A stretch of 64,000 bases of DNA, from positions 41,418,001 to 41,482,000 of the forward strand of contig CM119371.1 in the NCBI GenBank assembly GCA_051294905.1, read 5' to 3'. The notes under the pieces were generated by a model that was not told where the DNA came from, searched no databases, and saw only the letters and a list, made by a program, of their open reading frames with translations. This document shows, piece by piece, positions 1-64,000 of this stretch. A program made the translations under genes and the position numbers. Numbering within the stretch: position 1 is the first letter of the stretch; every line of letters starts with the position of its first letter. The stretch is from Botryllus schlosseri (Eukaryota).

Positions 1-400
1 AATTCATGGAGTACTTTACTTTGATGAATTATTCTCAGATAAATCGTCCCGTTGTGTTGCAGCGAGCAGTTGAATTGTCGTCAAAATATCGTTGGTCTTC
101 ACTGTATCGTAAAACACTGTCTGCAGAAACCAAATGTTTTTCAAAGCGGGTGGAAATAGGAACAATTCATCGTATAGATTGGTAAAGACTTGATAAACAC
201 GTCTCTGATTGTCCGTTCGGTACGCTCTGCGTTGAGATGTGCTAATTTCCTCTTGATGCAGCAGTTGATGACGTGTTCACGGTAACCGTTATTAGGTAAG
301 ATATTACAGATGTTGTCAAGCTCAAAATTCAGCTCGTAACCCTAACAGATCGGCAATTCTATGCTATAAAAGAATATATTAGCAGCTACGAGTTTATTGA
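1..400 (-). mobile_element. Degenerate Penelope-like retroelement fragment (RT thumb/linker before GIY-YIG)
   Basis: The minus strand reads IC*GYELNFELDNICNILPNNGYREHVINCCIKRKL...ISTRFEKHL...CFYDTVKTNDILTTIQLLAATQRDDL, resembling the PLE 'NNGYP' thumb and linker. Contains stops and frameshifts. Confidence 0.65.
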
Positions 401-6034: not shown

Positions 6035-6590
6035 GTAGATTGGCAGTGTGACGCAACAATGCTGTCTGGCGAAACGAGAGACTAGCTCAAGAGCAAGGAT
6101 GCGGCCGAGCGGCGAGAGTGGGATCAGCTGACGTCGCGGCAATAGCAATGAGCAATCGCGTCGCAGAGAAACGCTCCGCTGTTGATACTTTTTCTATTTG
6201 CTTCGGTACAAACGAGCACGCCTTATCATGCAGCCTTTCCTTGACTTTTAGAACTGGGTCCACAGAATGTATTAGGGCTCCAGAGACGCGTGACGCTGTT
6301 GATACTTTCTATAGGCGCTTCGCTAAAAGCGAGCTCACATTACCAGCCTTTCCTTGATTTGTAAAGGTAGAACTGGGTCCGGGTATTTGGGACCTACGAA
6401 TTTTCCTGCAATATCCTTCAACTTATAGAGATCCTTCCGTCCAAGTATAGCTAGGTTAGTTATCTATAATTGCTCATTGCTATTGCCGCGACGTCAGCTG
6501 ATCCCACTCTCGCCGCTCGGCCGCATCCATGCTCTTGAGTTTCTCTCTCGTTTCGCCAGACAGCATTGTTGCGTCACACTGCCAATCTAC
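6035..6590. mobile_element. Fold-back non-autonomous DNA transposon with ~120-bp TIRs
   Basis: 6035-6157 is a near-perfect reverse complement of 6469-6590. A diverged internal ~90-bp direct repeat occupies 6171-6261 and 6290-6380. Confidence 0.85.
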
Positions 6591-7451: not shown

Positions 7452-10400
7452 GTAAGTAACTAATTGTTGGAGGGGTCGGGTTTATAAAATAGTTATCTGG
7501 TTAGGCCATACAGGCAACATTTTTATCTTCGGCTAGGCTATACTCATCATTTTTACAAAGACAAAAATCCAACGATTTCGTCTCATTGCTACTGATGCAA
7601 CTTATGTATATATGACTTGGACAAAGGATCTTTTCAGATGAAAATTAGAATTACAGCTATACAGTTTTTTTTTCAAATTAGATTTAAATAAGAATTAGCT
7701 AGACACATTATACCAATTTAGACTAGAATTACAATTCCTGAATTCGCGTTACCTTGGCGATTGAATCAAGTTCAGTTCACATCAAATTAGAGTTCATTCC
7801 CCTAATCGTTAGAATCGCAAATGCCTGTGCACTGCTGTGCAGCACTAAACAGTTCTCCTGTAGCATTTTTAGGGAAACTAGAAATTAGATTATAAATCGT
7901 AGCAAACAAACAATTAAATTAGAATTAGATTGCCGGTATTTCTCTCTAATTAGTGTAATTTCAACAACTAGAATTACCTAATTTTCCAATCTGATGTATG
8001 ATGTTTCTGTACGTGAGCTATACATTTATCATATCACAGTCTTTAGATATAATCCGTAACAATGTGCTATCTTATCCATACTGCTAGATATGAAGAGTAA
8101 GTTCCATTCATGAAGCTACCATTTACAATACCATACTTTTAGAGCCTTTGCTGTTAAAGCAAAAGTTCGGATTACCCTACAAAGAAGAATACGCAAACAC
8201 CAGCTCTCCAGAGTTCCAAAGAATCTCCGAAAACATAACTAAGATAATTAGAGGCGCTCTCGGAGAAATATCTTCCACGGTCAATGTCAAAAAGATCACC
8301 CAGGGCTCGGTTGTGGTCTGGTATGAAACTGCGACTGCGGACGGCAGAGAACTTTCTAAGAAAGATATTCAAAGCTTTCACGCAGCGGCTCTCACAGACA
8401 ACAATTATGGGTTTGGAAATATATCCATCGAAGCACCAGAGATTGGTAAGGACGTCTGCGGAACTGAAATACAGTCATCCAATTGGGACTGGGGTAACTC
8501 TATGCCTGTAAGGCAGGGGCCTGCAACTTCTCCAGTCGGCCGGCCAGATATAGGAATATTAAGTAGGCTACTTGGCGGGCCAGATTGCTGAATCGATACA
8601 TTATAGCCTATGCCCAATCATCCACATAAATTAGAAATAGATTTATTTAATAAATGTATTTTAACAGCAGCGATGTCACTCCAAATGCATTTCTCGCCGA
8701 TAATGACGAAGCCCATATAGCTTAGGGTTACCATATTTTTGTTTCACAAATTCCGGACGCTCTTCAGCGCCCACTAGCGGATTTCAAAATGAGGTGTGAG
8801 CGCATTGTCGATCAATATGACGTCACACCTACAACGCTGTGTCTATCGACTAGAAGTGGCCGCGATCCGGTTCAGCAGGAGTATGTGGTTGTGTATTGTA
8901 TGTTGTAACCTGGGCCGTAGCCACATATTGCAGCCCCATCCCACCCATGACCCAAATGGTCCATCGTAGGGTTTTCGATGCAAATTCTGGGGGTTTACTA
9001 TATGCATCTGGTCGTTAAATGATTTGAATGAATTGTGTCAATAATATTGGCTCTTCCATATATTACTGTATAATTTTAATGCTCTCTCCGTCCACATAAT
9101 CAGAGTCAACGGTAGGGAGCTGATGTAGAATGATGACTTCGAAAATGAAGGGGCGCAATTGTGCATCGTTAAGGGGGGAGACTACCCCTCGAATTGAAAA
9201 ATTAGTAAAATGCCTCTTACTTGAAAACTAATAGAGCTATCTATCTAAAATTTGGGCACAAGGTGTTTTAGTTGACATCCTAAATTTGACAAAAATTTCG
9301 CGGGTGTGCACTTCACCACTGATCTATATAAACACCGCACATCCGGTGTTTTTCAACCTTTTATGGTCCGGATCCGGCCCGCGGGCCGTATGTTGCCCGC
9401 CCCTGCTGTAAGGCAAGAGATTTCTATCTTATTCTGCAATCATTATCGAAACTATATGCTGTTGCCACAATTCCGAATAGTCAATACGCCTCTGATCCTA
9501 AATCTAAATGACGCATTCCGTCAATCAAGTAATCATGGACGATGTCTCTATGCCCTCCTGTTATGCATTATCCAAACTTGCCACAATCCCGAATGGTCAA
9601 TTCGCCTCTGATCGTAAATCCAAATGGCGCCATGCGTCATCCGTCCGTAATCATAGACGATTTAGTTAACAACTAGCGGCTGAATGAGTCTGAGTTTAAA
9701 GCAAGCGCCTATAAAGAATGATAGCATATTGATACAACCATCGCAGCGAATGACATCATAATTATGGTTTTTCTATTTTTGTACAATGTACATAATATAC
9801 ATTTATCTACGGCCTTATTTGCATATATTTAAATGTTCAGTCGCAGCTCCTGACACCTGTTTGCCTGACAAGATAAAGCCCCATGCGACTGTTGTATCAA
9901 GTTGGAATTTCGGCGAAAGCAAACCGGGGGATTGGGTTCGTTCAAACGAAAACTGTGAGGACGATGGTAATTATATAGTATCGTCAGACGCACTCTTCCA
10001 GCTTGTAGAATTCCCCCAAGTCAGCAACATGTAATATATCCCATGATTTCTACCCGTTATAGTCTTAGACACAGCTTGATTTAATAGTCGGCCATTACCA
10101 TCACGGACACTGAGTAAAAAGACAAAGTATATCGATCGCTTGCAGCACGATGTTCATGAGATACTTGTACAAAGTACCAACCTAGTTAGTTAGCGATTAT
10201 TCAACTACTTTTTTGGAGCTCATGAACAATACACCAACATTACCCGTCCATGGTGATCACTTTTATGACTAAGTACTTGTACACGTCAAACTTTTTCTTT
10301 TTTTATGCTCTCTCGAATTTATATTTCATGACTCGCAGATTTCTAGTTACGAGGTTTCAGTTTTTTCCGTTTACGCCCATTACGTAAAATACTTTACTTG

Positions 10401-13400
10401 AAACCTATTACAAACAATGCGCCGCCGGGATTATTTTTGTTTGCCTGATACCTATCTCAAATTTACTTAACGTGATACCAAAATTATAACATCACATTTC
10501 ACTACTTCCCTATACAAACTATTTATATCCTGTATTTACACTCAAATTTTAAGAACTATCTCTTACCTTCAAATTATGTCAGTCTCCGTTGTGTTCCGTA
10601 TTACACTTATCGCCATCAATTGACTTGTTCCGTTTTGTCTCCTCGTTTTCCTTAGACGACTTAAGGTTCTACGTCGACGACACCTTATACAACCTACCCA
10701 TAACACAATCACCCGAGCCATCAACCCTGTTACCACCATTATTACAACCACTGGTTCCACGATAGGTATCAGATTCGCACCTTCCATAATCATCCTATCG
10801 GTCAAAGATAAGCCTCTTACCTTATATCCACCTTCCATCATGACTAGTTCGTGCAGCCATCGAGTATAGTTGTAGTCGTCGAAATCTGTGGTTGTCTTCC
10901 CCACGGTGGCTCTTGATAGTCGGGAATATTCAGGTGCGGGTGTTCCCAACCTTTGGTTTTTCTGCCCAGGCAGCGGTGATGCGTCAACCATCGTTGACTC
11001 CAAGGTAGTATTCATTAGTTCGACACTCCTCGGGGACGAGTCGTCTTTGTCGTCTCCTGTTGAATACAAAACAGTTGTTTCGGTACTTACCTTACGGTTG
11101 TGGTCCGGGTTTTGGTAGTCCGTTCCGATGTCGGTCCTGCCGTCTTCCGTGGAGTTCTGCAGAGTTCTGCAGTTCTCAGTGGTGACCGGATACACTCGCG
11201 TCGTTGTAGGTGTTTCACCAATGATTTTCGTCATTCCGTCGGTTTGGTTTCGCGCGCGAAGAGTTTGCAACTGTTGCTTCCCATAAGTCGCATCAATTGG
11301 TTTGACAGTTTTATACTCCCCCTTTTTGTTAGCCATCGATTTCGATCGTCTTACTTGCACCAGCCTCGCTTTCATCCGCCATTGTATTGTTAGGGGTGGC
11401 AGATGTTTCAGCGCTGTAGTGCTTGGATCATAGTCTTTCGCCGCTGGAGTTACCCACGTCGGACTGTAGTAAGCGATCATGTACACTTCTTGGGATGGGG
11501 GTTTACCTCTGACGTCCGTCTTGCTACTATCGAGTGCGACTCGCCTTGTCTTGTAGTAATTCATTCATTTTCTCATGAACAACAAAAATAGCCAATTTTC
11601 ATTCGGCAAAACCTTGTTCAATAATACCAAAATAAGGTATTATATCTATTGCTTCCTTTAGTGCCTTCGCCTGACCCTCCCGCGTCGGGTTATAAGGGCC
11701 AAAAACGAAAGGCTTAGTCGATGGGTCCTTACGTTCTATGTCGCATTGGTATTTCATGGATTGGGGGGCGCTGAGTTGGCCCCGCAGGCTATCAAGTTCG
11801 GAAGCAAATGGATCATAAACGGCTGTCAAGACTCCTTCAGGAATGGCGATTTTTTCTAGGCCAGTCAAAAGTCAGGAGGTTTGTATGACAGTTTCGCCAG
11901 TGCTACCGATTGTGCACAGAGACTTTCGAGTTCCGTCTTCACGCTGGGACTGGTGTCTTGTTGTAAGGTTAGGCTACATAGTAATTGGGGCAGTTATTGG
12001 CCCAATGCGAATCTCGTGATGAACGGGGTTTTGGTGTTGGTGGAGAGAGGGCGAGGTTCTTCGTTGTCAGTGGGGATTCCCAACCTATTCAATCTGACCT
12101 CTGATCTCGGCGTGTGCCCACGCCTACCGTCACGCCGGCAGATTCGGTCGCCGCCGGGGCCCGTTTCTGGGGAGACGTGCATCTTAAAATCCCCAGACTC
12201 CTTGCCGGTCATGACCGGACATGTGTCCGGTTAGCCGGTAACAGCTGCTTTGTTTGAACCTTTTGGGGTAGTACTCATGACTGTGGCTGTCGTCATGCAT
12301 CTATGTGCCGAATCATTAGAGTTATTCGGACAAGTACATCCACGAGAGCATTTAGGACCAGTTTTCTCGTGCAGGTCCTTATTTACGCCAGCCGGGATTC
12401 CGCGCTCGACGTCTTCATTAATGGTGCCAGCAGGGATTCCTGACTCGACACATCTTTAGTTAGTGCCAGCAGTGCTAACTGACCCGACACTTTCTCGACT
12501 AGTGCCAGCAGGGGCTACCTGACCCAACACTAGGGATTTCCCATATTTTTTGACCTTTTGGGAAAGAAGGTAAGACAGTTGCCGTCGTAAGATCGGCGTA
12601 TTTATGATTGGTGCCAGCAGGGATTCCTGACTCGACACATTTCGCGCCAGTGGTGATTACCATCTCGACACTTGCGCCAGCGGCAACGGCATGCGGCGAC
12701 ACAGACAACGTGCCGGCTCGAAGCTTATTTGATTTGCAGCTTCCATCAACCCATCATCGGTTACAGTGTCGCGAAGACTGCTTCCGACTTTTGGTTCCGT
12801 CCCGTTGATCACACGAGATCCCGTCATGAAGCGTTACTAAAGACAACTCTTCGTTCGCATTAGGCGGAGATTCAAATTCAGTCGCTATGTTTGGTAATTG
12901 TTGTACATGATCAATCCATTTTAGACCTACAATATCGAGAGGTCTCCTTTCTCGATCGCAAATGGAGCCGATAGTCCGTTGAAATCGATTATTACTAAGG
13001 AGTCAACGTGGGAGGAGTCACCTATATCACGTAGTTTCATCTCTATAGGTTGCCGCTCCTCCCAGCTTGGCGGGTATTAGGTTTCTACGACGTTTATCAA
13101 TTTGAGGACGCTTCCCGTGTCGGCGCAGAAAACCCCAGTTGTGATCCTTCGACGATCTTTTCTTTTCATAGATTGGCGTTCGCAGATAGTAAGGAGGTAA
13201 TCGATGTGTTCGTCTTCAGACTCTCCCCCGTCCACTGAAATTGCCAAGAAATGACGCTGAGCCCCAGAAGACCTTCAGTTGGTGCCTCCATTTGATTATA
13301 GTGTAGCTTCATGGCGCTTGCCATGCAAGTATTCCACACTTGGTTCGATTTACTTCACAGAGCTCAACCCCATCTCCTGGCTTTTCCACATTTTTCCACA

Positions 13401-16400
13401 CCCCTTATACAACCCGGTTTTGTCGACGTTGATTTAAGCATTGGTTGTAGATTGATCGAACGAAGCAGTGACCTTGGAAGGTCCAGCGGCTCAAACTATT
13501 CATACAATAGACAAGCCCCTTGGCTTAATACAACCAACATACTCCAATAATTATAATGCAGACAGCAATGAGGTATCTATGCAAAACTCGGTTAAGTTGG
13601 CACTCGGAACATACGTCAATCACAACACGAGTCAAGATTTAACCTATTCATATTCATGCACGATTAATAACAGTTCAATACTCCAAGGTGTGTTTACACC
13701 ATAAATGTGACGGTATTTCCTGCCGACAATATACATGCATATAATATACAAAAAATATGCCAATCGATGCCACAAAAAAACAATACCACACAGAGTTCAA
13801 GTTGACCAATTTGCCGACCACCTTGTTTATCAGAGTTCCCCAGTCTTCCAGATGCAGATATCAAACTGCAATTAGTCCAGGAACCGACCCCTTGTTTGAG
13901 TCGTTACTACTTAGGATCATCAAGTAGCCTACTTGCGTGCTGTCGATTCGGAGATCGGGCATTCCAAGTCCAACAGAACGCAGGGTTTGTTGAGGGTTCG
14001 TTGTAACGATATCCCGAATGCAATACCTCTATGTTCTTGGCTCTTTCCATCTTTAGCTCATCGGCTTTATGGAGCGATTCCAGCAAATTTGATCGAGCTG
14101 CTTCATTTATGTATACATTGCAATTTCGGTTAGCAGTCGCACCCATTTCATCGCGCTGCTTTATTTCTGTATACTTTGCAACTGCAGCAAGCAGCCGATC
14201 CAATCAATAGCATGTCAAGATTTTTCAGAGGGACATCGGAACATCACCCTTCAATCTCAAAAGACGTCAAACCCTTTCGCAATGCCTCCGTCAATGTCCG
14301 GTTTTCTGGATATAGTCTGCTACTGGATGCTTCGTTTGGGGCTCTGTTTCAGACTGGCGGATTTACTTGGCATAGAGTCACAAGTTCGCCGAAACTAGCG
14401 GACGCACCGATGTCGTCTTTATATGCAATAATTGGATACTACAACTGATTGTACAATTCATGTGGACATCATACATGGCATAGATATGCATACATATATC
14501 AGTCATACTTCGGCTCACTGTAAAAGCTCGCATACATGAAAAAATGGTGGCGCCATTTTTGGTAAAGCAAACTGATGGTATAGCTAACACTTAACATGCA
14601 TACGACACAGTCCCAGATAAGCAGAAAATGATACCATCTCACTTATAATAGTCATATGTGAACCAATATCCCAATTGTAATCATGCTATATTCCTTAATC
14701 TCCGGTATTGGTGTGCTTAAGCTTTTTTATTCATTCGTATATATCGTGCTTCATAAGCAATAGACTAGGCTTATCGCGAATTTCGAACTCACATATGCTC
14801 CAATGCGTTACCCCAAGAGGTCTTTAAATACCCATGTTTCTATTGTCCTATGGTCCATTACACATCAAATTTTCAAACTTTTGTCTCGTTGGGGTGAAGG
14901 GTCCTGACACTAGTAAAGGGGCGGGGTCAGTTATGACGCCTTATTAATACCTACAGTTGTAGTACTCGCTATTGAATTACTGCAGTAACAACCAATCATT
15001 CACATATTAAATGTTCATAACTTATACCTATATCTAAGACATGTTAGCGTCATCTTAAAGCAATATGATGGTAGATGTCAAAGATTAGGTAAATGCAGTA
15101 CTTGAACAATATAAGAAAGATAGGCGTCACGTTGCAATAATACGTCATAGTGAACCCTCACATGAAAATACCCCTTTGCAGATTGATTTTTGCCAATACA
15201 GTAAACTTTCGTAGTTCGTACACGTAATGATTGCAATGCGACAAAATGGCGTTCGTCAGGCGCATTCACTTCGTAAAGTGAATACGCGGACAAAGCGGGT
15301 TTTAGGCTAGTGTCATTTTCCATCATCGACACATCAGTTTCGAAAAACGAATGTGTGGATAAGTTCAACCATGGGTTACTTTTCTAAGGTCTTTATATTA
15401 GCAGTACTGGCCTGAAGTATTCCTAATGTTATAGGCCTAGTAATTCCGGTTACATTATACTTCTTTATTAATCCTAGTTAGTAACCAAGGTATCGATGTA
15501 TATTAATCACAATAGTAGCCCTAAACTTTTGGAATATTAGTCGATCTTCTCCAAGGTCTAGCACCAAAGGTATCGATGTAGCAATTTGAAATCCGTTGAC
15601 ATTGTTGTTTGCGATTAGATAGTCGGCAACTATACTGGCGCTTCAGCGCTACGACGTAAAATCGACACAAGGCCCGATATATGTGACAACACAAAATGGA
15701 CATAGTAGCCAACGAGCTGACTTGCTGCTCCATGACCATTTACAGCGTCTCCACAGGGGCATTGACGTCTTGATCAGAATGGTATTGAGTGTATTGACCT
15801 TGCCGGAATAGTAGCGCTTGTGACGTTCAGATATAGGTAAATATATTTTCAATTTGAGTCAGACCAGGACAACTAGCAAATTTTGAGCTTTTCCAAATTA
15901 GATGAGATTTAGAGCTACACAGCTTTTCCAAATTATGTTAAAATTAGAATTAGAGCTACGCAGCTTTTTCAAATTATGTTAAAATTATATTACTGGCATT
16001 TCGCTCTAATTCCGTGAGATTAGACGACTAGAATTATTTAGTTGTCCAAGCCTGGTTCGAGCCGCCTGCTTGCAGTACCAATAATAAATCCAATTTGACT
16101 TTGTCCTTGTTATTACTTAATGCGACAAGTGGGTATATTTCTGAAGCTATTTTTGAGTTAGTGCGTTTCATCTTACGTCAGCGAGGTAAATTGTCCTCAA
16201 AAACATTAAACAAGAATGCTCTAAAATGCTGACAAAACCATGGAATATCTAGGTACAAAGGCACCCGCCATATTGTCGGCATGAATATGCACAGCGAACG
16301 GCACATATTTATAGACGCACTGCGATACTACACATTTACAACGCCGCAACATACCCTACGGAAACTTTATCGCTGCTAGCGATTATTTTTCATCCTCACT

Positions 16401-19400
16401 AATTCTTGGTCCTAGTTCGGCCCATGTAAGCTTACACGAAATAATAGAGTGTTTTTCGGCATATTCAAATCTTGACTGGAGTCAGGCTCACTTTCAACTA
16501 GACACTTTCATCTCGCCAAATCTGTCGCAGCCAATTACTAAACGCGACAGGATAGTTAGTACGACTGCCCTGGATCGCAGTTTCGTGGTGTTTTGAAATG
16601 ATGAAAATATTATTAAAACTGATTGACTAAACGCGGCATAAGCACTCGTCCTTTCCTGCTTTTATATCTCTAGATATTAGTATCTCTGGACTTTAATTAA
16701 ACTATACTAACTGTCCTACTCAAATTTTCGCGTAAATGAATTACATACTTTTCATATTGATTATTCGAGCGGGTTTCTGCAGATATGGATCAATACCATT
16801 AAGCATGATCCGTTTTGAATACTATCGATAAAACGTATTAATATAGTGTAGCCTTCTTTGTTTCATCCATGGCGACTAGGACTATATACCGCGCATGTTT
16901 GAGAACAAATGGCAATATTCGCGAAGGATTTCATATGTCATCACCCATTCGAATTACAACAGAATATGTCTGAAAGCGAGAGGTGGTCAGTAACGAAGTA
17001 CTTCTACTTTTTGGGATTACTCAAGTAGTTTTCCTCTACTTCTGGTACTTATTCAAGTAGATCTGATTTCCTCTACTTCTACTTTGCAATATTTTGTGAT
17101 CTACTTACTTACTTTTCGCTATTTTCAGTTTGTCAAGTAGAAGTAGTCTAATCCCCCAATACGAACGATAACTTGAGGAATTCCGCGGCTGTTTTCATGG
17201 AGTACCAACATTTAATATTCATAAGAGTCAAGTAAAGCCCAGAAATTTTGTTGCGCTTCGCGCATAGTAGTAATGGAGTGACAAATATGTTTTCGTGAAA
17301 GTATCAGTGAATGTAATTTAGGTACCGGATTGCTTGGTTCCTCTCACACCGCATTGTCGCCCATATGAAATATTTCATCACAGTAAATATGGCCCACCAC
17401 AACATTTGAAACTACCGTTTCGCAATCTAGCAATAGACACTTACGTGACCTTTGACACGAACCAATCAGGTTGCAGCAGGATGTAAACAAAGAACAAGGC
17501 CGGGCAAGCTTACTATGAGCTCTTATGGAAAAGGGTTGAAAAATGAAGGTTTTAAGCAAAATTACGTTGAATTATGGATGACTGGCCTTAATGAATAGTA
17601 ATAGCGTAGAGCTAGTATGTAGTTGCAGCTTTTAGTCTAGGATGAACATGAATGGTGGCAAGTATGCATCAGCGTGCCGTGTCCAAATGCATGAATTTTT
17701 GACAACTTTTCGGATTAAGCGACGATTGTTGTATACTATACTATAGGATTGTGGTAATGCATATTTTGACGATTTCATAGGCTCCAGGTCTCGTGCGAAA
17801 TTTTCAAGCATATCTCATGTTCAGAAATATATGCTTTAAAATATAGCTGCTGCCACGCATCACAATTTTGGTGTATTGATTATGAAACTTGAAAGCTATG
17901 GAGATTCTGTCGAATTTCTGGATTTGAGTGGAACAGCATCTTCTTCTAACACCGCGGAGAAAGCTACGAAGTATTTCATGGAGCGCTACGTACACGACTT
18001 AGGGACAAAGATTGAGGAGACAATCCACTCTTTGTGGAAGCAATATTCTAGTGAGCAGCCAATGTTATCGCAACTTGCGGAAAAGTGAGATATCACACTC
18101 AATGGAAATACACGTTCTCAGAAAATCCATTATTGACTCGTCTTGCACTTGTAAGACAGGGTAAGTAAGGAAAAGGACATTTTTTAGAGACTCCTGCAAT
18201 AGATAATGTACCCATGATTTATTTTCACATTAGGTTCTGATATGCTACAAAGACTACATTGTGATTTGCATCAGCATCAGCGAGCTCGATCGTGATTGAC
18301 AAGCAATCTCTCGACCGTACTCGCAGCGGATCAACTCCTGCCTCAAGGTAGATTTTGGTGTGTTCAGTTTTATAGCATTCCACCAAACACAAATAATCCT
18401 AGAACATTTTCACCTGGAGAATTGTTCATTCAATAAATTGGGCATCTACATGAGCTTCAATGCACACCACTGGAATATAGTATGAATAGACATGCACTGT
18501 TGGTACACATTGACCATGGCACCGCGCAATTATGATCCGTAGCATGCTATTAGGCATGACGATATTCACAATGGAACTGAATTTGCACAATTGCCGAATA
18601 TGTTGCGTCATTCATTTTAAATTTTTAATCTTGAATTAGAGTAAGCAATTAGTCCATATTTGGTTAGTTGATACGAAATGCTGCACAGTATGATACCAGA
18701 CAAAATTTTATACTCCTTGATTCTTCCAATCAGCTGTTCAATATGAATACGTTGTCTCGCCATCTTTCTTGTTGAGGAACAGTCTGGCTCAGGCATTTGA
18801 CGGTGTGCCAAATCATGTGCAGGAATATTTAAATCTAGATTCAATTTCTTGATTTCAGACTCAATGGTGAATCCCTTTTCTGCCATGATAGCATTTCCTG
18901 GTTCACCATAGCTGAACTCCATCATTTTCTTACATTTCTTGTCGAATCCACATATTTCACTAATATTTCGATCTGAAATGGTCCCTGTGAACAGTTCCTG
19001 CACAAAAGTATGTGCACCACAATCCATCAATCCTTTCAAATTGTAAGTAATTTATTGACAGTCAATAATCATTCTAGTTTTGAGAAATCATGAATGAATG
19101 CAAATGGTGCATTTTTAAGAACCACATATCTACGTGGCCAAATCGAAATTTATGAAGCAGTTACATACGGTTGACCCAATGGTTTAATACTATGCTTACA
19201 GCAATACTATAAACTTGACGTCAGTAGGATAAGTCGGGAAATTCAGAAAGAATTTAATGTAGTCAAGCATAAAATTTCAGCTTCTACGCATCTTTTGACA
19301 TTATTGATGCTCCTCTGAGAACTGAACTTCACTAGCAATAATTGTCCGTCAAATTGTAATTTTCCTGGACGAGTTTCCTGTTTTGTGCTTCTACTTCTTA

Positions 19401-22400
19401 CAGAGATTTGATTTTCTTGCGTTTTATCCATCGACTTCCTCTTTCTGCAGCTTCATAAAAGAGACATCAAGCCTGCACAAAAGATATAATATGTTTATTT
19501 TGCAGAGCAACACTGCTGTGCAGGCACCTATCAAGGCGTACTCGTCCGACTCATGCAACGTATCACCGCTACCAATTTCAACTATTCATCTAATTATTGA
19601 ACATATTGCTCTCAACAAGTTCAATCCATTACACACCATCAAGCAACAAAACTGGAGTGGAATAAAACGAGACACACACCAAGTCGATTGTGGCATCAAG
19701 TGTGACTGCCTTTCAGATTGGACTCATTTTGAAGCACAGAATTGTTTCATCTAAATTATGTCACTATTCAATATTTTTGGTACAATAATAGATGTCATTT
19801 TATTAATAAAATGAGAATTCAGATGACTACAAGGAAGTCCACATGCCTTTATCCAGATTTTACATTCTTCCATGCATGTTATTGGCTCTGGGAAAGGTAC
19901 AAGCGCACACCAGGAACGGTCTGGGTAGCCATCTCGAAATTACACAGGCTATTAGCAGTGTTTATCCAGCATTTGTCCCGATTGATTCAGTACATGAGCT
20001 AGAACAAAAAATGACGATTTCAGCTGGGAACGGATCATGTTGCCTAACATATATCATATTAATATGATCATTTAATATGCAGACAAGTGTCCAGTGTAAC
20101 AGTAATTTGCTAGATAATGATACAGACTGTAGTCTGTACTACATACGATTCCATAAATAGAACGCATATAACGCCAAGCCCACATAATGAATACCCCACA
20201 TATCCTGACTCAAGATTAATCTAATACATGCTATTCGGTACGACAATCTTATAGTATACGACTAAGGATAAAGGATAATACAGGAATAGTTGCTTCATCC
20301 GAAAAGTTGTCAGAAATCCATTCATTTGGACATACCATGCTCATGAGTGCTTGCCACCATTCATGGTTATTGTAGGTTAGAACACTGCAAATACATACTA
20401 GCTCTACGTTATTACCATTCACCAAAGCCAGCTATTCTCAATTCAATGTAATTTTGTTAAAAACCTTCATATTTCAACCCTTTTCCATAAGCGCTCATAG
20501 TAAGCTTGCCCGGCCTTGTTCTTTGTTTACATCCTGCTGCAACCTGATTGGTTCGTGTCAAAGGTCACGTAAGTGTCTATTACCTATCATACTGTAATCT
20601 AGCAGCTCCTTACGTGTCTTGATAATCTGAAAAATCCAGCTTTTTTGAACGTTACACCTGTTTTAGCAGATGACCTTTTAAGCTTTGTGGACAAAATACA
20701 GGAAATAAATTATCCGCTTTTTAGAAGTGGTATTTGTATTTCATTTTAATTGCGAGTATCATACTTTTACTTTCATAGATGTTAAAGCATAAACACATGT
20801 GTCGTAATGCCTCCATTTTCCGAAAATAAAACTAGCCTACACTAAATATAACTTTTGCGCTCCACAATATTTGTTATTAACGTATGATAATCACGCAAGG
20901 TGATGTAACCGTATCCGATACATTTTCTACGTATTGCTCTTCGCCTAAACTTGGGGCCTTATAATATGGGGTAGGGCGCCATCCCATGATATTCTCTAAA
21001 AACGGGGTGTTCCAGTAAACAAAAGATAAGTATCGCATTTTCATATCAGTACTATAATTTGCATCCCATGATGCGAAACAATAGTTATTATGTAGAAAGT
21101 TGATAACTCCTGGGATGCATCAATACGAATCAAGCTCCCTGCACGGGCCGCATAGCTCAATTCGCAGCTTTTGACAGTCCATGCGAACGAATTAAGACTG
21201 TTTTCAAAACTACTAACTTACTTGAGTAGATATAAAGTCAGTTAATTCTACTTCTACTTCAAGTAGTTTTAGGTGGCTTATTGAAGAAGTACTTCTACTT
21301 GTACTTGAGTAGATTTTTCCGTCGCTACTCCTACTTCTACTTGAGTAGCTTTCTTGACCACTTTGGCCACCTCTGCTGATATCATCCATAAGTCAGTTTT
21401 TCTTTTCTTTAGCAATTGTCATATAATTCGGACCCTCTCTGTCTTTCAGCGTTCCCTTTATTTGAATTCAAAACGACTAGCACTTTTTATACAGTTGCAC
21501 TGTGTTCCAGAATAGCTATAACCATAAACTCTTGTGACCTCAGAACAGTGTGGAGATCAAACCACTACCTTCGAGTCACGAGTCACCTTGAGACATTAGT
21601 CACATTACACATTTCGACCCGAGCCCAGCCAAGTACCGTCAAGTCATCATTCAAGCCAAATTGAATTTTCGAAGTATGCATGATTGCATGATGATGCAAA
21701 GTCACTACACTTTGCCAACTGGGTGTAGGACAAATTAATTGGTCATTTATCTTGAATCAAATACTGAATAAACTTAAATATACATACGCTCTGATCTTCG
21801 ATGACGTAACCTCGGTGCAACAATGCCAGCCTCGTCCGTGCGTAGATGCGGTCTGTCTAAGCTTCAATTCCTCCGCTTCGTGTTGGAGTCCGAATTGGAC
21901 TGGATAGATGGTGATTCGAGGCTGCTTATATGCATTTCTGTTTCAAAAACAAACAAAGACTTCCCTGCCAAGAGCTGGCTATAAGTTTCGGGCCCAGTTC
22001 GTGATGAGTTATTTTCTTTTTAATCTTTTTATGAATCACAGTTCGTGCTCCATCCGCGGCCATTAACTAATTGTTTTCGGCTCTATCAGCTACCAAAATG
22101 GCACAGCTTCGTGTGCGAGTTAATCTCCCTCATCATTATAAATGACCCATTATAACGACTTCGTGCACGAGCAGAAATGACCAAGTGTCACGATTCGGCC
22201 TCGGCTCCTTATTTGGATAGAAACATCGGTCGCCATTTTGATTTTGCGTCAACACAATACCTTGCAGTAGCCTACCTCGCTCGCTGCAATCACCTTTTCC
22301 TCGCTCAGGGAAATACTTTACTTTTTGGTTGCAAAGTAGGTACCCTATTTAGGTTTTCTTTCACCAGCTTACTCAGTAACCCACACGCAACAACGTCTAA

Positions 22401-40400: not shown

Positions 40401-43400
40401 CAGTTATTACACCTTGGATATTGTCGGGAAGATTGGATGCACTTTGTCAATCGTTGGGCTGTCGTTGACGATTGTCACATACTTATATTTTAGGTAAGTC
40501 GTTTCTATGTTATTGGCGCTAATTGGTCAATCGCTTTCACATTTCTGTTGCTGAATGAGGCTACCGCTACGGCCAATTAAAATTTTTAAATTCACTGAAA
40601 ATAATATTCAAATTTTAATTTCAACCCCGTGAAATTGTTAAGATGCCTAAAACAACGATGTATAACTTTTTCGCTCACTTCCAATCGGAAGAAGCGAAGT
40701 CATTGCAGTTGAAAGTTTTGGATTTGCGAAAAAACGTTGATGATGGGTAATCCCCGAATCTAATGAAAAACTCAAACAACTTCACCTCTACGTGTTAGAA
40801 TGGCGTCAAATTTCATTTGCAACGTTTCCGTAGACAACTTAACAACTCCATTGGGTTGAGGGTAAAATTAGAATTTTTTTTTTTTCAAATTTATTTTAAT
40901 AAATTGAAAGTTTTCAATTTGCTGTGCAGCGGCTTCTACTGGTTAGAATTAATCCGAATTTGAAGTGTAGCATTTTTTGAGCAACCTAATCATTGAATCC
41001 AGGGAATCCGGGGTAAAAAGTTATTTTCGAACAACCCTTGGCTACACCCAATCAAATTTGTCATAGTCGATCTAAACATGTTCGGAATCATAATATTATA
41101 CCAAAAAAGTGAATCATTAAGTATTTAAGACCTAGTGTTGCCTAAAAATCCGAAAAATGTGAAATCGAAGTAGAAGCATTCGTCATTACTGATCAGAGGT
41201 GTCCAAAATAGCCATCGTTGACACTCGAGTAGAGGTATAGAAGAAGCGTCGTAAATTTTTACTCAAGTACATACTTTAAAGCAAGTAACAAAATAAGTAC
41301 TTTTGCTCTAGTTTGGCTTAATAATTCGAAAGCTGTGTGACGTAGAAGTAGCATTATTTTGTTACTGACCCCCTCTGCTGCTGATATTGCACGCATCAGT
41401 CCTTTCATTTTTCTATATTTTCAGAATATATATATATATATTCAGGTCCCTCCGAAAAAATAAGTTGACTCAGATCCATTTACACCTGTGTGCCTCGTTG
41501 CTGGTCGGTTACCTGACGTTTCTGGCTGGAGTCGAGAGACCACGTGCTTACGTCCCATGCCAAGTGGTTACTGCCGTCCTGCAATTCTCGTTTCTTTCCG
41601 CATGCGGGTGGATGATCACGGAATTTTACGTGATGTACAGGTCAGGCTTGTGTTACGCATGCGTGTATGTGTGACATTTACACTTGGGGTTGTAACCAAG
41701 TCATAAGGTTACGAGTCACAAGTCAATTTCACTTTTATGGTTATGAGTAGAGTCAAGTCGAGTCGGTGGCCAGATAGCGTATATAGAGGTAAAATCCACA
41801 GCTGCAACATCAATAGGTTGACGGTTCGAGTCCGACCGAGGTTGACACAACCTAAGTGTTGGTGAATACTATAAATATCAATTCACCACCGTGTCAAGTG
41901 CGAGTCCAAGTCCGGGATCAGACGATCGAGTCCGTGTCATAGTTGGTTTGTTTGTTTTGTGGTATTTATGGTATTTGTCGACTACTATGATCATTTTACA
42001 CCAGGACGATATTCTTCACTTTTATTCCGTGACCGCCGACTTTTACCAAGGCCCACTTCTAGACTTTTTGTAAGACACAGCTTACATGGATGAGGTGGTG
42101 AGGCGGAGCCTAGATAAACCTCGAATACTTGGGTATAGGAATTCTGAAATCGTGTTGAGACTACTTTTAATTTCTGTTGTGATATCTAAGGCTTCACATT
42201 CCTATACTCAAGTCATCATAACCCTGATTTGGTAACTGACGTGCCGATCACGCAGTGCAGTGGTTCCCAACCTTTTTGCCATCATTCCCCACTTCAGATT
42301 TATTCCGAGACTTCATTCCCCACCTGGACCGTAACAGCACTTCGTCACCCCCCCCCCCCCCCAAAAAAAAAAAAAATTAAAAAAAATAAATAAACCGTTG
42401 GTCTTGGATTCCTCACAGGGTGATAAACCCAACTTCTGGGGGCCACGCTCCCTAGAACCCCATCAGCCCCCTGAGCCTGTACGCTTTCTTCCCGTTAGTT
42501 ATCAGCTACATTGGGTCCACTGTTTCGAGCGTCGCCTTATTTCGACTAAACGCGCCAAGCGCGAAAAATTCATATTGTAAACGACTGTCATGCGCGAAAG
42601 CATAAGTAGGCCGCACGCAAACCAAAACCGTGACGGCACACACGGGCACAGGCAATCTGCGAGGCACGTGTTCTCAGAACCCGCATATTGAGGTCGGCGC
42701 GCTCGCGCTTCAGTCGTAAGATAGACAATTGGCTCCATTTCGTTTCATTTATTCTTTCTATTTCTTGTTTAACCGCAGTATCATTTGAACCTGGTAAATC
42801 TACAAGTTTCTGACCACTAATTACTACTATTTGGCTGTTCTGTGCTAGTAAAGAAAGCTCCTTGGATCTGCGTGTGTGATCAGGATTGCGAGAATACTCA
42901 GAGCGGTCATTAGTCAGTCAACTAGTGCGTATAACGGGAACTGTAGCTGTAGCGTCGACTCCAATCAAGTAATATACCAGCGTGTCTTGCAACAAGTCGT
43001 TGCAGCGACCGCTACAGTCAGAAACTTTACCAGTCATAAAGTTGAAAGTCGGAAACGTTTAAAATCATGGAAGCTGCAGCAACGTCAGAGAAAGCTGACT
43101 GCTCAGCCGCACAAAGTCAAACTGTGGCAACGTCAGAGAGTGCTGACTGCACAGTTCCACCAAGTTCAGAGAGTGTTGAAGACGGACGTGCAAGTGTCAA
43201 GAAAGAAATTGTGGACCAGAGCCCCGCGAATAGCAAGTCAGTGGGTTCTGATGTTCCAACCAGTAGTGACGGCACTTTCCATGGATTCGATCAGAGATTG
43301 GTTGAACTTGATCGTCAGTTCCGTGAAACAAAAGGAGAAGTGGAAAGACGCATCGAATCGGTAAAGGATATTATAACACAATCAGCAAATAAAGAAGTAC

Positions 43401-46400
43401 GGGAAGCAATGAAAGGTGTTTCCTACTGCAGAGACGAATTGCGGAAAATTACCGGAGAAATTACCTCCAAGTATGCTGAAAATTCGGAAACAAAGGATTT
43501 CACCAACAGTCTGAGGTTGGTTGAAATGAATATTAAAAAAGTCAAGAAAACCGCTACGGACTTCATGATGCTTCCATCCGAAAATGGATCCGTCTGTAGC
43601 CGCGCGAGATCTGGAGCCAGCTCGAGATCGAGTCGTCATACGCAAAACAGTCGCACCAGTCACAAACAGCAATTTTATGGTCATCAAAAAGAAGCGGCTG
43701 CTCTGAAAACCGGACTTGAATTTACGAAGCGAGAAACGGAAGCAAAAAGAGAGGCTTTCGAAAATGAAACTAAATGCAAGGCAGAAATGGAACGAATGAA
43801 AATTGAAAACGAACGATTGAAAATGGAAAACGAAGCAAAGTTGAAGCAATTGTCTCTGGAGTCTGAGCTAGCTGAAAAACTAGCCGTGATCGCAGTTTGC
43901 GAGCAAATTGAAAGAGAGGAAAACTCCTTTGGTCTTGATGACGATGAAGATGTCGTACGTGAAGAACTAAGTTTTACAGAAATACGGAGTAAGGTTCCCG
44001 TATTGAATTCGGTAGAGAAGGTACAAAACTTCGTTATTAGTAACCCGCGCGTGTGCCCTGAAGTAAGCCAATGTAATGTCGAATGTAGTGAACCCGTATC
44101 CTACGGCTCAGTTATTGATAAAACTCCTGTGCCAATAAACAATGTCCCACATGTTGAGCCGGAAGCAACCGGCCGAAACACGTTTGCAGAGATGCCCGTT
44201 AATCATTCTATTGATGTACCCATTGACCGTCAATACAACATGAAACCGTTGATGCGGATACCTGATATAAAAGTTTGGGTTTTTGATGGCGATGAAACTA
44301 ATTATATGGAATGGGAAAATTCGTTTAAAGCGTTAGTTGAAGATAGTGTGTATTGTGTTCATGAAAAGATGAATTTGTTGAAACAACATCTTGGTCCGGG
44401 CCCGTTGAAAGTTGTGAAATGTTATTTTTTGCGTGGTACCGAGGAATCTTATCGAAAAGCAATAAGTGACTTGCGAAGTAGGTATGGAAGTCCTGTCGTT
44501 GTTGGGCAGGCCTTTCTTGATAAATTGAAAGGTTGGCGTCATATAAAGGAAAATGATAGACTCGGGCTGCAAGAATTCTCTGATTTCTTGGAGAGAGAGA
44601 GAGAGAGAGTCTTTATTTTCATCGAACCAAAATACATAACAAACGGCAGTGATGGTGGTACAGAAAATATGCGTGCACAGTATTCGGTATTAGATAGGAA
44701 TGATCGATAAGACCGTGAAGGTCATCTAGTCTGATCACACCAGCATCAAACAAGTACACTTGACTCTGAACAGTCTGGCTGTAAAGAAATGTTTAGTTAA
44801 AGGAAAATAGAAAAAAAATTAAACAATGGTGGCAAATGATCAATGAAGCAATGTCTGGGCGAGGTAGGGCAACAGTGTTAGTGTAACGACAAGAGGTGAT
44901 CAAGTAGGGCTTTTTTGAATCTATTATAAGGCAATTCACGGATATGTGGTGGTAATGCATTCCAGATGATAGGTCCCGAGTAGTCGATAGATCTCTTAGT
45001 TAGGTTGCTATTGGGTGGGGGTAAGTAGATGTTTCCTTTAGACGAGGATCTCGTGTAATGGGAATGGACATGTTTAGCAGGTATGAAAAAGTCATCAAAC
45101 ACAGTAGGCGGACTATTGGAAAAATATTTGTGAACAACTTTTGATACTTCGAAGCGATATAGTTCATCAACTCGCAAAACTCACTTATTGATAAGTGGTG
45201 TTGTAAAGTGTCGAAGTACAAGGCACAGATGAATGATGTAAATTGCTACCCTCCATTTGAGTATTTCGTGTCATTTGTGAGGGATCAGTCTGAACGTCGA
45301 AATATGCCAGAATTCAGAATGTTGGATGAAAACCGAAATAGTAATGTCACGCAATCTGGTCAAAAGTTTGCCCGTGACAGGCCATGTGTTTCATTTGGAA
45401 CTAATGTTATGTCAGGCTAATATAATTGCATGTTTTGTGGAGAGAATGATCACCATATCCCAGATTGTGTGGATTTTGAGAATTTACCGTTTTCTGAACG
45501 AATATCGTTTATGCGTGACACGTTTTTATGTTATGGATGTGGGGACAGATGTACTAGGATGCAACACGGTGAAGATTGTCCAAACCGCGTAGTTTGTAGG
45601 AAATGTGGAAAGTTACATTTAACTAGCTTGCATCCGTGCTCTGCTCCCGTTGTTTCGAATTGTATTGAAGTGTCCGAGCATAAAACCGTAGGTGATTAAT
45701 GATAGTATAATTTGTGATTTGGTCTCAGATTATCCTTGTCTGTTTTGTACTATCGCTGTATGATGTATGTTATTAGCATTTGCCCGTCTTTGTTGCCTGT
45801 TATGGTCTATTTCTCCTTTTGTGTTCGATGCAATGCTTGTAAAAGTCCGATACCCTGACGTGGAGCCACATTGTTTATGAAAATAGTTGTAAAGACATTT
45901 TGTGTTGCACAAAAATGTCCTTAAGGGGGGAGTGTAAACAACTGTCATGCGCGAAAGCATAAGTAGGCCGCACGCAAACCAAAACCGTGACGGCACACAC
46001 GGGCACAGGCAATCTGCGAGGCACGTGTTCTCAGAACCCGCATATTGAGGTCGGCGCGCTCGCGCTTCAGTCGTAAGGTAGACAATTGGCTCCATTTCGT
46101 TTCATTTATTCTTTCTATTTCTTGTTTAACCGCAGTATCATTTGAACCTGGTAAATCTACAAGTTTCTGACCACTAATTACTACTATTTGGCTGTTCTGT
46201 GCTAGTAAAGAAAGCTCCTTGGATCTGCGTGTGTGATCAGGATTGCGAGAATACTCAGAGCGGTCATTAGTCAGTCAACTAGTGCGTATAACGGGAACTG
46301 TAGCTGTAGCGTCGACTCCAATCAAGCAGTATACCAGCGTGTCTTGCAACAAGTCGTTGCAGCGACCGCTACACATATAATTCATGTTTGAATCGGTCAA

Positions 46401-62888: not shown

Positions 62889-63343
62889 TCACTGTTCCAG
62901 CATCTTCTTTGCCGATTCCGGTTTATCGTCAATGTCCTCCAAAATGTCATCCTGCTGTTTGGCGCAATACATTTTACGTACCATATACGCTGCTGAAACA
63001 CCGTAACCAAGCGCTAAGACGAATGCCAGCACCAGTACGGTCAGATTCCGTCCCCCGTTTCGGAAGGATTCTTCGTCAGGACACACGCCTACATCGACCA
63101 ATTCGTACGAGTCTTCGCACCACCATATAAACCAATGCGCCGTGACGCAGAATGCTCCACAAGCCGCGTACAGCATGGCCGCTATGGCGTTACAGATCAT
63201 GTCAATTTTAGCGAGGCCACGCGATTCGGAGAAGGACAGGATTGCGTAAAACACGGACGTGATAATCCATATCGGTAGAGTTACGGCTGCGCAAAACAGC
63301 GCTTGGTCGTGCACTTCTGGCGGCTCATCGCTTGTGGACAGTA
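62889..63343 (-). CDS. Probable last exon of a multi-pass membrane protein (3 TM helices visible; MARVEL/tetraspan-like topology)
   Basis: Open frame with three hydrophobic segments and a charged tail; TTCTTCATTTCAG acceptor at 63344-63345. Upstream exons not resolved. Confidence 0.6.
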
Positions 63344-64000
63344 CTGAAATGAAGAATACGTTGTTACCAGATCTTCTGTAAATTTCTACCCAATAACAGG
63401 GAGAAGTAGCGATTTCAAAGACATGCCCAAAACACATCAAGCAGAAATGACTATTGAAGATCTAAGTTTGCGATGACGAATCGGTGATGTGGTTTTGATG
63501 CTGTTAACGTGCGGTAGCACTAAAGATCCAACGTAACAGCTCATCTTGTGCAGCAGTTATTCTATACTCTATACTAGTAATGCATTAGATGGGTGATGTG
63601 GTAGATATTTGTCTTTGTTACTCAGTTAGATATCGGGCTTCGAAGGGTTGCGGGATATACCGTGACGGTTCGACAGGTTAGTAGAAGTTGATACTTATCA
63701 ACCACTGGTACATGAAGGCGTAAAATACATAAATATGACGCAAGGTTGAAGGTTTGATCAAAATTAATTCAAAATTAGTTCACAGACAGTACTGATATGA
63801 TGGATTGAAGATAATTTATTTGATATGATGGATTTATTCAGATATCTTGGGGTTTCGAGCACTTACGACATCGGCTGGGATTGGCATCCATTGTCTCTAA
63901 AGCAATGCCTACTTTGGACTGAAATCGCAAACAATGGTAGCGTCACGTCATTAATATACATTGTTTGACAAGGCGGCAGATGGGAGTATTTGCTGGTCGC

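What the first reader, a model, noticed from the sequence alone, without database searches (positions are those of the whole stretch)
10569..14460. Gypsy-derived element whose truncated RT is fused in frame to a mucin-like stalk and transmembrane anchor
Seen: on the minus strand, in pol order, a knuckle remnant, a protease (ADTGS...DIVGLKWI) and an RT N-terminus (GIIEQGFAE*KLAIFVVHEK, then RRVALD...QEVY...KDYD...KKGEY...TYG). That frame continues with no stop into a T/S-rich segment with N-glycosylation sequons, a TM helix and an RCRRRR tail. YxDD, RNase H and integrase are absent. Established: env-like ORFs in gypsy elements normally sit after integrase as a separate ORF. Inference: either a deletion joined RT to an env C-terminus, or this is a non-autonomous family encoding a Gag-PR-pseudoRT membrane polyprotein. 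The 331-codon stretch is much more open than the upstream pol, which hints at constraint or domestication.
Basis: partly seen in the sequence, partly recalled or inferred. Interest (0 to 1): 0.72.

Follow-up and report, generated by a model that had tools for sequence, protein, structure and literature searches.

The report
Pol-less repeat with membrane-anchor frame
A 5.5-kb repeat, shared in near-identical form by several sequencing runs and likely a non-autonomous gypsy-type retroelement of an animal, has no recognisable polymerase core but keeps one open frame ending in a predicted membrane anchor, which likely encodes a small membrane protein rather than a reverse-transcriptase fusion.

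Summary
The 331-codon frame (10569-11564, minus) is real and longer than chance gives. It has a Thr-rich segment, one hydrophobic helix and a basic tail. It lies in a multi-copy repeat of about 5.5 kb (10211 to at least 15716), so it is not a domesticated single gene.

The RT-like/stalk junction recurs in frame in another run's contig, so it is a family trait. Stranded RNA reads cover the membrane end but come from other copies.

The 'RT fusion' is weak. The best RT-like motif lies upstream, behind a stop and a frame change that near-identical copies share. The part inside the frame has no profile support. The protease has modest support. Gag, knuckle, RT core, RNase H, integrase and an LTR pair were not found.

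A diverged variant likely breaks the long frame in the stalk, and the weak signs of constraint sit at the membrane end.

Best reading (0.5): a non-autonomous gypsy derivative whose working product is likely a roughly 90-residue single-pass protein, sORF2/FAST-like in layout but without the myristoylation motif. Closest precedent: rotifer TelKA2n. New variant of a known kind; interest 0.42.

The parts
10211..15716 (-). Multi-copy repeat. The 3' edge is near 10211; the 5' edge lies somewhere between 15716 and the small repeat that starts at 15867.
   Evidence: Summed contig depth in X1 is 3.6k-16.5k in the element's bins, against 24-32 in the flank bins 9602-10135. X5 is 31-214 against 0. X1 steps from 11.4 to 4633 at 10211. 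Depth is not a calibrated copy number.
10569..11564 (-). 331-codon open frame
   Evidence: a contig bridges 10774-11492 with a frame-neutral gap (record 11)
10569..10841 (-). Candidate 90-codon small ORF from M242/M243: about 30-residue ectodomain, one helix, basic tail. The start codon is inferred.
   Evidence: M243 has A at -3 and G at +4, as do M192 and M260. The four highest hydrophobic moments of the frame lie in residues 249-267.
10695..10751 (-). Predicted transmembrane helix, residues 272-290
   Evidence: Kyte-Doolittle 2.59; helix with block-mean pLDDT 80-89
10638..10685 (-). Polybasic juxtamembrane tail with two nearby Cys
   Evidence: sequence: 7 Arg in the first 15 residues after the helix
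10860..11276 (-). Thr-rich segment ('stalk'), variable between variants
   Evidence: a roughly 85%-identical variant does not align over 11072-11393 (record 12 and joint table)
11277..11564 (-). RT-like by eye only, inside the open frame; no profile support
11565..11871 (-). Upstream RT-N-terminus-like piece in another frame, with a stop at 11599-11601; borderline support
   Evidence: 95 of 2000 shuffles as high with the best of three profiles
12367..12640 (-). 39-nt (13-codon) imperfect repeats in the roughly 1-kb spacer between the protease-like and RT-like pieces
12868..13199 (-). Broken retropepsin-like piece (DTG at 13121-13113), with one stop and one frame change
   Evidence: best glocal peaks at this site ranked 5 and 6 of 160
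10290..10312 (-). Purine-rich run, a possible polypurine tract, about 75 nt before the element's end
   Evidence: sequence only; no partner LTR found

Best explanation
The region is one copy of a multi-copy, transcribed 5.5-kb repeat, likely a non-autonomous Ty3/gypsy derivative with a decayed protease and RT start, whose one open 3' frame likely yields a small single-pass membrane protein from its last 90 or so codons rather than an RT fusion.

Shown: the repeat; the shared junction; shared upstream frame breaks; one-strand RNA from other copies; a hydrophobic helix with a basic tail.

Inferred:
(1) An old internal deletion or template switch removed the RT core, RNase H and integrase and put the RT stump next to a 3' accessory (env-like) ORF.
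(2) The family is copied in trans by an autonomous partner.
(3) Translation starts at an internal Met (M242/M243), perhaps from a spliced or internally started RNA.
(4) The product inserts N-out/C-in without a signal peptide, with the basic tail inside.
(5) It would work like the sORF2/FAST-type or reduced env-like proteins of other LTR elements, helping particles at membranes or between cells.
The RT-like and stalk codons would be passengers.
For: Repeat and continuity.

Junction shared: an X19 contig spans 10774-11492 with 40 substitutions and only a 6-letter gap, and an X5 contig spans 11228-12053 with 7 substitutions and no gap.

Upstream breaks shared: gap-free contigs run across 11463-11633 (X19) and 12790-13235 (X5).

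Constraint leans to the membrane end:
- Diverged X1 contigs are gap-free over 10670-10921 (38 substitutions), 10788-10964 (23) and 10900-11105 (23).
- One X19 contig has its 5 gaps in the non-coding 10513-10560 and none in 10572-10800.
- Of the 12 indel rows shown (of 21), 7 are single-base in the 3' non-coding part, and the 5 in the frame sum to frame-neutral.
- In 10689-10845, 10 of 17 listed differences are at third positions and 9 of 17 are synonymous (p 0.02-0.03). None of 29 differences in the frame involves a stop.

Long frame not universal: a variant seen in two studies (X19 record 12, X15 record 9) has an unalignable stalk and, by lengths, a net change of about -26 nt.

RNA: 71 and 222 reads of 22.2 million records each, 93-96% on one strand by my sums of the depth table. 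They pile at 10333-11003.

The layout fits several published sORF2/FAST-like criteria.
Against: Gypsy ancestry rests on a modestly supported protease and a borderline RT start. No LTR pair, target-site duplication or gag was found.

The codon test over all 29 sites is not significant (11 synonymous, p 0.15; third position p 0.07). The significant sub-window was one of five tried, and the antisense frame that shares third positions scores equally well. The sites are only the best-supported rows of long tables.

The variant's net +2 inside 10774-11071 is not fully located and could hit the small ORF too. That variant may be a dead copy.

There is no MGxxxS/T motif and no Tyr after the helix. No start site, splice or peptide was seen. 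The RNA pile is also what a 3'-biased library would give for any transcript of the element, and part of the peak at 10339-10382 comes from partly matching reads.

No homologue was found in the protein and contig searches. Atlas look-alikes of the membrane end scored 0.85 or less, which is generic.
Confidence: 0.5

Rival explanations
1. No protein is made. The open frame is a fossil: the 3' end of an old env or a captured host membrane-protein mRNA joined to an RT stump, amplified passively in a recent burst.
For: The overall codon test is not significant. Copies upstream of 11228 are about 98-99% alike (table 8), so little time was available to gather stops. The sense strand of the stalk is T-poor (16%), which lowers stop odds. 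The membrane end has weak look-alikes among host single-pass proteins. PMC5408684 reports mostly neutral intragenomic variation even in real ORF3s, so such tests have little power.
Against: The frame is far more open than composition allows. Contigs 10-15% diverged stay gap-free around the helix while the adjacent non-coding DNA takes indels.
Confidence: 0.25
2. One reading: a real 331-residue protein (RT relic, Thr-rich stalk, anchor) is made from the ATG at 11564 and sits in the membrane as a signal-anchored glycoprotein or a tail-anchored scaffold.
For: The frame starts with ATG and has no stop. It is kept in frame over 10774-11492 in a contig with 40 substitutions, and the one shared indel in the stalk is 6 letters. 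Four sequons precede the helix.
Against: There is no signal stretch before a 270-residue N-terminal part, and M1 has a weak context. The RT-like part has no support. No confident fold for 1-260 (single sequence, so weak). A variant from two studies likely shifts frame in the stalk, and one X1 contig has a 1-letter gap in 10900-11137.
Confidence: 0.13
3. It is not an LTR derivative but another class of repeat (for example DNA-mobilised) that carries a captured membrane-protein fragment. The protease and RT look-alikes would be chance.
For: No LTR pair, and no significant hit in window-wide profile scans. The protease-to-RT spacer is about 1 kb, far longer than in the Mag-type references.
Against: The protease piece beats shuffles in four of five measures, the best-single-reference test (5 of 60) being the exception. 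The protease-like piece precedes the RT-like piece on the same strand as the frame. No inverted repeat between the ends was found. Contig depth does not rise toward the 3' end, as it would for LINE-driven copies (expectation from general knowledge).
Confidence: 0.1
4. A domesticated single-copy host gene made from a gypsy element.
For: The frame is more open than upstream.
Against: It is a high-depth repeat. In X24 the reads show another letter than this copy at 10801 (29 of 29), 10878-10879 (25 of 25) and 10910 (26 of 26).
Confidence: 0.02

Closest known systems
TelKA2n of the rotifer Adineta vaga (PMC5408684, passages read)
   Same: Non-autonomous LTR family that lost most of pol and keeps an env-like ORF. 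Related rotifer families carry short (210-230 aa) transmembrane ORF3s of uncertain homology.
   Different: TelKA2n's ORF is called env-like and its autonomous relative is known. Here the frame has no env homology, is contiguous with an RT-like stump, and no LTRs or partner were found.
sORF2/FAST-like proteins of MDG1-group gypsy elements (10.1101/2025.03.14.642691; sections 8 and 10 and passages read)
   Same: Single helix, about 30-residue ectodomain with an amphipathic stretch (if translation starts at M242/M243), polybasic tail, cytoplasmic part under 150 residues, same orientation as gag-pol. Some lie downstream of pol.
   Different: No MGxxxS/T motif (also absent in Stalker1/2), no Tyr after the helix, not a free-standing ORF in this copy, and the host element lacks an intact gag-pol. 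The retrotransposon survey in that paper covered arthropods; the host here is unidentified.
Errantivirus F- and gB-type Env (PMC13524379) and Oikopleura Tor Env (PMC4402516); passages read
   Same: Membrane-anchored ORF at the 3' side of a gypsy-like element. Tor3b env RNA starts inside pol, a precedent for an internally started RNA.
   Different: Those have large structured Cys-bridged ectodomains, mostly with a signal peptide and furin site. Here there is one Cys before the helix, no signal stretch and no confident fold.
LARD-type non-autonomous LTR derivatives (search listing only; definition recalled)
   Same: Kilobases long, multi-copy, no functional RT or integrase.
   Different: LARDs are defined by LTRs and a non-coding interior. 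Here no LTR pair was found and one long frame is open.

Membership tests
Ty3/gypsy LTR retrotransposon (autonomous) | RT with YxDD, RNase H and integrase after the protease | tested here: not met
   no profile match above reversed or shuffled controls
Ty3/gypsy LTR retrotransposon (autonomous) | Gag with CCHC knuckle | tested here: not met
   region no more open than chance
Ty3/gypsy-derived element | Retropepsin remnant | tested here: inconclusive
   15-49 of 2000 shuffles as high, 20 of 70 identity; no Pfam hit; not significant window-wide
Ty3/gypsy-derived element | RT N-terminal remnant | tested here: inconclusive
   95 of 2000 with the best of three profiles, upstream piece only; pairwise at chance
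Ty3/gypsy-derived element | Pair of LTRs | tested here: not met
   no direct repeat between the ends of this copy; the 5' end abuts another repeat and may be cut
Ty3/gypsy-derived element | Target-site duplication and polypurine tract | tested here: inconclusive
   the one 6-mer candidate falls inside the neighbouring small repeat; purine run at 10290-10312
Ty3/gypsy-derived element | Primer-binding site | not tested
   no host tRNA set and no 5' LTR edge to anchor the search
Non-autonomous LTR derivative (LARD/TelKA2n-like) | Multi-copy, near-identical, without RT core or integrase | tested here: met
Non-autonomous LTR derivative (LARD/TelKA2n-like) | Autonomous partner sharing termini | not testable with these tools
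   no genome held; only 23 of 154 loose ends shown
Errantivirus Env (F or gB type) | Signal peptide or first helix, plus a large structured Cys-bridged ectodomain | tested here: not met
   only one hydrophobic stretch in the frame; one Cys before it; no Pfam or phmmer hit; no confident fold
Errantivirus Env (F or gB type) | Separate ORF beside an intact pol | tested here: not met
sORF2/FAST-like | Single transmembrane helix, N-out/C-in | tested here: inconclusive
   helix by hydropathy and model; topology inferred from the basic tail; no TMHMM available
sORF2/FAST-like | Ectodomain of 10-50 residues and cytoplasmic part under 150 | tested here: inconclusive
   29-30 and about 40 residues only if M242/M243 is the start; 270 if M1
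sORF2/FAST-like | At least 3 K/R in the 15 residues after the helix | tested here: met
   7 Arg (sequence; criterion)
sORF2/FAST-like | N-myristoylation motif MGxxxS/T | tested here: not met
   no Met of the frame is followed by Gly; Stalker1/2 lack it too
sORF2/FAST-like | Amphipathic motif in ectodomain and in tail | tested here: inconclusive
   ectodomain moments 0.59-0.62, the highest of the frame; tail at most 0.47; no control run
sORF2/FAST-like | Cell-cell fusion activity | not testable with these tools
   needs a bench assay

The most novel reading that the evidence does not exclude
A polymerase-less gypsy derivative has spread as a helper-dependent 'satellite' that supplies a FAST-like fusogen, encoded behind an RT stump, to particles made by an autonomous partner. 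This would extend envelope-free cell-to-cell retrotransposon transfer to a non-autonomous element and, if the host is not an insect, beyond the taxa surveyed so far.
Probability: 0.2. Interest if true: 0.72.

Novelty: new variant of a known kind. Interest (0 to 1): 0.42.

Why it matters
Small membrane ORFs of LTR elements escape homology searches, and their spread outside insects is open. A high-copy element that lacks a polymerase yet keeps such an ORF would show that the membrane protein alone can be selected in a parasite of a parasite. It would also give a testable candidate in a species that has single-cell RNA data. If the frame is a fossil, it is an ordinary deletion derivative.

Tried and rejected
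No host genome is held, so copies were seen only through laid contigs and reads.

Homologue searches found nothing:
- Word-index proteins: 0 of 1960 candidates.
- phmmer over 1.84 billion representatives: 0.
- Metagenome contigs: 0 of 61 pattern matches.
- Atlas, whole frame: no usable hit.
- Pfam: only sub-threshold PDE8, LFE_1968-like and MLANA rows.
- PDB sequences: one MRT4 row at E 0.04, and none.
- Rfam: none.
- Earlier scan notes: none.

The run search gave 'no RNA holder listed'. RNA run X21 (another organism label) had no reads on the element and only partial matches on flanking repeats; it is not informative.

Rejected ideas:
- My first idea, that a 10-nt duplication at 11152-11171 made the frame private to this copy. 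The shared difference there is 6 letters in X5, X15 and X19.
- A 6-bp target-site duplication; it lies in the neighbour repeat.
- LTR or inverted-repeat similarity between the ends; it is at shuffle level.
- BEL/Pao ancestry of the RT-like piece; considered by eye and not tested.

The host phylum was not identified: the host gene at 62892-63437 had one unnamed relative at 70% identity. No fold search was run, because the model is low-confidence.

My profiles cover only mdg1-type, Mag-type and two badnavirus-like references (clade labels are mine, from recalled motifs), so other gypsy lineages could score better.

Literature searches listed no description of an RT-stump/stalk/anchor frame. The library lacks most subscription journals, and no supplements were read; Repbase-type tables there could hold this family.
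Full report
OBSERVATION. The minus strand has a stop-free frame of 331 codons at 10569-11564. It is longer than any of 1000 composition-matched simulations of the region (maximum 305). It needs 0 breaks where simulations need 9.1+-1.8 (0 of 200). It has a Thr-rich middle (residues 97-235, 18.7% Thr), six sequons, one hydrophobic window (272-290, 2.59) and a basic tail. The single-sequence model shows a long helix at 266-325 and no confident fold for 1-260.

HOMOLOGY. Pfam, PDB sequences, the two large protein searches and the Atlas gave no usable match. I built gypsy profiles from fetched references: 85 RT and 37 protease segments of one type, and 71 and 15 of a Mag-like type (clade names are mine, from recalled motifs). 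Window-wide hmmsearch and frameshift-tolerant scans found nothing above reversed or shuffled controls for RT, RNase H, integrase, gag or knuckle. The protease site ranked 5-6 of 160 peaks.

In a targeted test with X at breaks, the protease piece was reached by 15, 17 and 49 of 2000 shuffles. It beat 60 of 60 shuffles in mean pairwise score, but 5 of 60 matched its best single score. It aligned colinearly at 20 of 70 identities. The RT-like pieces were reached by 95, 298 and 1065 of 2000 shuffles, essentially only the upstream piece aligned, and pairwise scores were at chance. So the protease is probable, the RT start is possible, and RT inside the open frame is unproven. Upstream openness is borderline for 11565-13274 (11 of 200) and absent for 13275-14460 (124 of 200).

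IT IS A REPEAT. No genome is held. Twenty runs from 11 studies hold part of 8000-16000 (shares include flanking small repeats, and X1 may be the source). I laid 7 of the 24 listed runs. Contig depth is high and continuous from about 10211 to at least 15716: X1 3.6k-16.5k against 24-32 in the flank bins, and X5 31-214 against 0. It steps from 11.4 to 4633 at 10211. Depth is not a copy number, but the contrast excludes a single-copy gene. Long pieces from X5 and X15 are about 98-99% alike to the window upstream of 11228, and pieces are 85-94% alike in the 3' kilobase. No LTR pair, inverted ends or credible target-site duplication was found in this copy.

THE JUNCTION IS A FAMILY TRAIT, AND SO ARE UPSTREAM BREAKS. 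An X19 contig spans 10774-11492 with 40 substitutions and a 6-letter gap. The same 6-letter difference is in X5 and X15. An X5 contig spans 11228-12053 with no gap. Gap-free contigs also cross the frame change near 11565 (X19, 11463-11633) and the protease region (X5, 12790-13235), so a Gag-PR-RT-anchor polyprotein cannot be read from the common form. One 88%-identical X1 contig has gaps in 11489-11659, and some upstream indels vary among copies, so not every break need be old. No joint or loose end shown leads from the RT-like part into a polymerase core, but only 23 of 154 loose ends were shown.

WHERE IS THE CONSTRAINT? Three diverged X1 contigs are gap-free over 10670-10921, 10788-10964 and 10900-11105. 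One X19 contig has five gaps in the non-coding 10513-10560 and none in 10572-10800. Of 12 indel rows shown (of 21), 7 are single-base in non-coding DNA, and the 5 in the frame cancel or sum to six.

Against a constrained long frame, a variant seen in two studies (X19 record 12, X15 record 9) aligns at about 85% over 10774-11071 and not at all over 11072-11393. By lengths it is about 26 nt shorter than the window, which is not a multiple of three. This assumes its first 99 letters map without gaps to 11394-11492. Its net +2 inside 10774-11071 is only partly located, and it may be a dead copy. Another X1 contig has a 1-letter gap in 10900-11137.

The codon test is weak. I used the 29 listed differences inside 10572-11500; the two next to the 5' break were left out, and the tables showed only 40 of 557 and 40 of 218 rows. 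They fall 5/10/14 by codon position, 11 are synonymous (p 0.15) and none involves a stop. In the sub-window 10689-10845, one of five tried, 10 of 17 are third-position and 9 are synonymous (p 0.02-0.03), but the antisense frame sharing third positions scores alike.

RNA. Two single-cell runs gave 71 and 222 reads of 22.2 million records each, 93-96% on one strand by my sums of the depth table. Reads pile at 10333-11003, are absent at 11004-11186 and sparse above. A mean record length of 59 fits a 28+90 layout. If this is 3' chemistry (inferred), the RNA is sense to the frame and the pile reflects 3' bias. Most reads are under 95% alike, and at 10801, 10878-10879 and 10910 none carries this copy's letter (29 of 29, 25 of 25, 26 of 26 in X24). 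So other copies are transcribed, not this one. No splice joint was listed.

MECHANISM. The frame has no N-terminal hydrophobic stretch, and the basic tail points inward by the positive-inside rule (general knowledge). A 270-residue glycosylated ectodomain is therefore awkward, and a cytosolic polyprotein would put the tail outside. A start at M242/M243 gives 90 residues with a 30-residue ectodomain holding the frame's most amphipathic stretch, 7 Arg in the 15 residues after the helix and a 40-residue tail. That matches several criteria used for sORF2/FAST-like proteins in 10.1101/2025.03.14.642691 (sections 8 and 10 and passages read), but not the myristoylation motif or the post-helix Tyr.

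I put 0.5 on a non-autonomous gypsy derivative with such a small protein, 0.25 on a fossil frame, 0.13 on a real 331-residue protein, 0.10 on another repeat class and 0.02 on domestication. Mobilisation in trans, the start codon, topology and fusion are inferred, not shown.

KNOWN RELATIVES AND NOVELTY. TelKA2n, a non-autonomous rotifer family missing most of pol but keeping an env-like ORF, is the closest architecture (PMC5408684, passages). Errantivirus and Tor Env have large structured ectodomains that this frame lacks, though Tor3b shows an env RNA starting inside pol (PMC13524379 and PMC4402516, passages). Seven literature searches listed no RT-stump/stalk/anchor frame; supplements were not read. 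It should not be filed as an errantivirus Env, an autonomous gypsy or a proven FAST protein. It is a new variant of pol-deleted elements with a membrane ORF. Interest 0.42.

Noticed in passing
window 43046-44710 (+), to about 45650: 554-codon ORF with DUF1759 (E 4.5e-7) and knuckle-like matches near 45424-45654: likely a BEL/Pao gag remnant.
   Followed up: partly
window 52175-53239 (-): 354-codon ORF with RNase H (E 1e-15), likely the 3' end of a non-LTR retrotransposon.
   Followed up: partly
window 17432-20581: About 3.1-kb element with long inverted arms (197 nt at 92%, plus 105 nt at 78%) around a DDE_Tnp_4 piece at 18617-19051 (E 8e-15): likely a Harbinger-type DNA transposon.
   Followed up: partly
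window 8094-8591 (+): SEA-domain-like exon (E 3e-4, below cut-off). Laid contigs 85-90% alike suggest paralogous exons. The element may lie in an intron of this gene on the opposite strand.
   Followed up: no
window 62889-63461 (-): 190-codon hydrophobic ORF, MARVEL-like by eye (recalled label), with no Pfam hit and one unnamed relative at 70% identity.
   Followed up: partly
window 12367-12640 (-): 39-nt imperfect repeats (13 codons) inside the element's spacer; the period is a multiple of three, which hints at former coding.
   Followed up: no
window 10339-10393: Short segment with extra depth in DNA contigs and RNA reads and many partial matches: possibly a cis element shared with other families, such as a helper element.
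   Followed up: no
run X5 on window 10136-15742: A run under another organism label holds the element at about 98-99% but not the unique flank 9602-10135. Low-level admixture or horizontal transfer cannot be told apart here.
   Followed up: no
window 6035-6590; 15867-16050; 8500-9400: Small high-copy repeats, one with 122-nt inverted arms at 97%; one abuts the element's 5' end.
   Followed up: no
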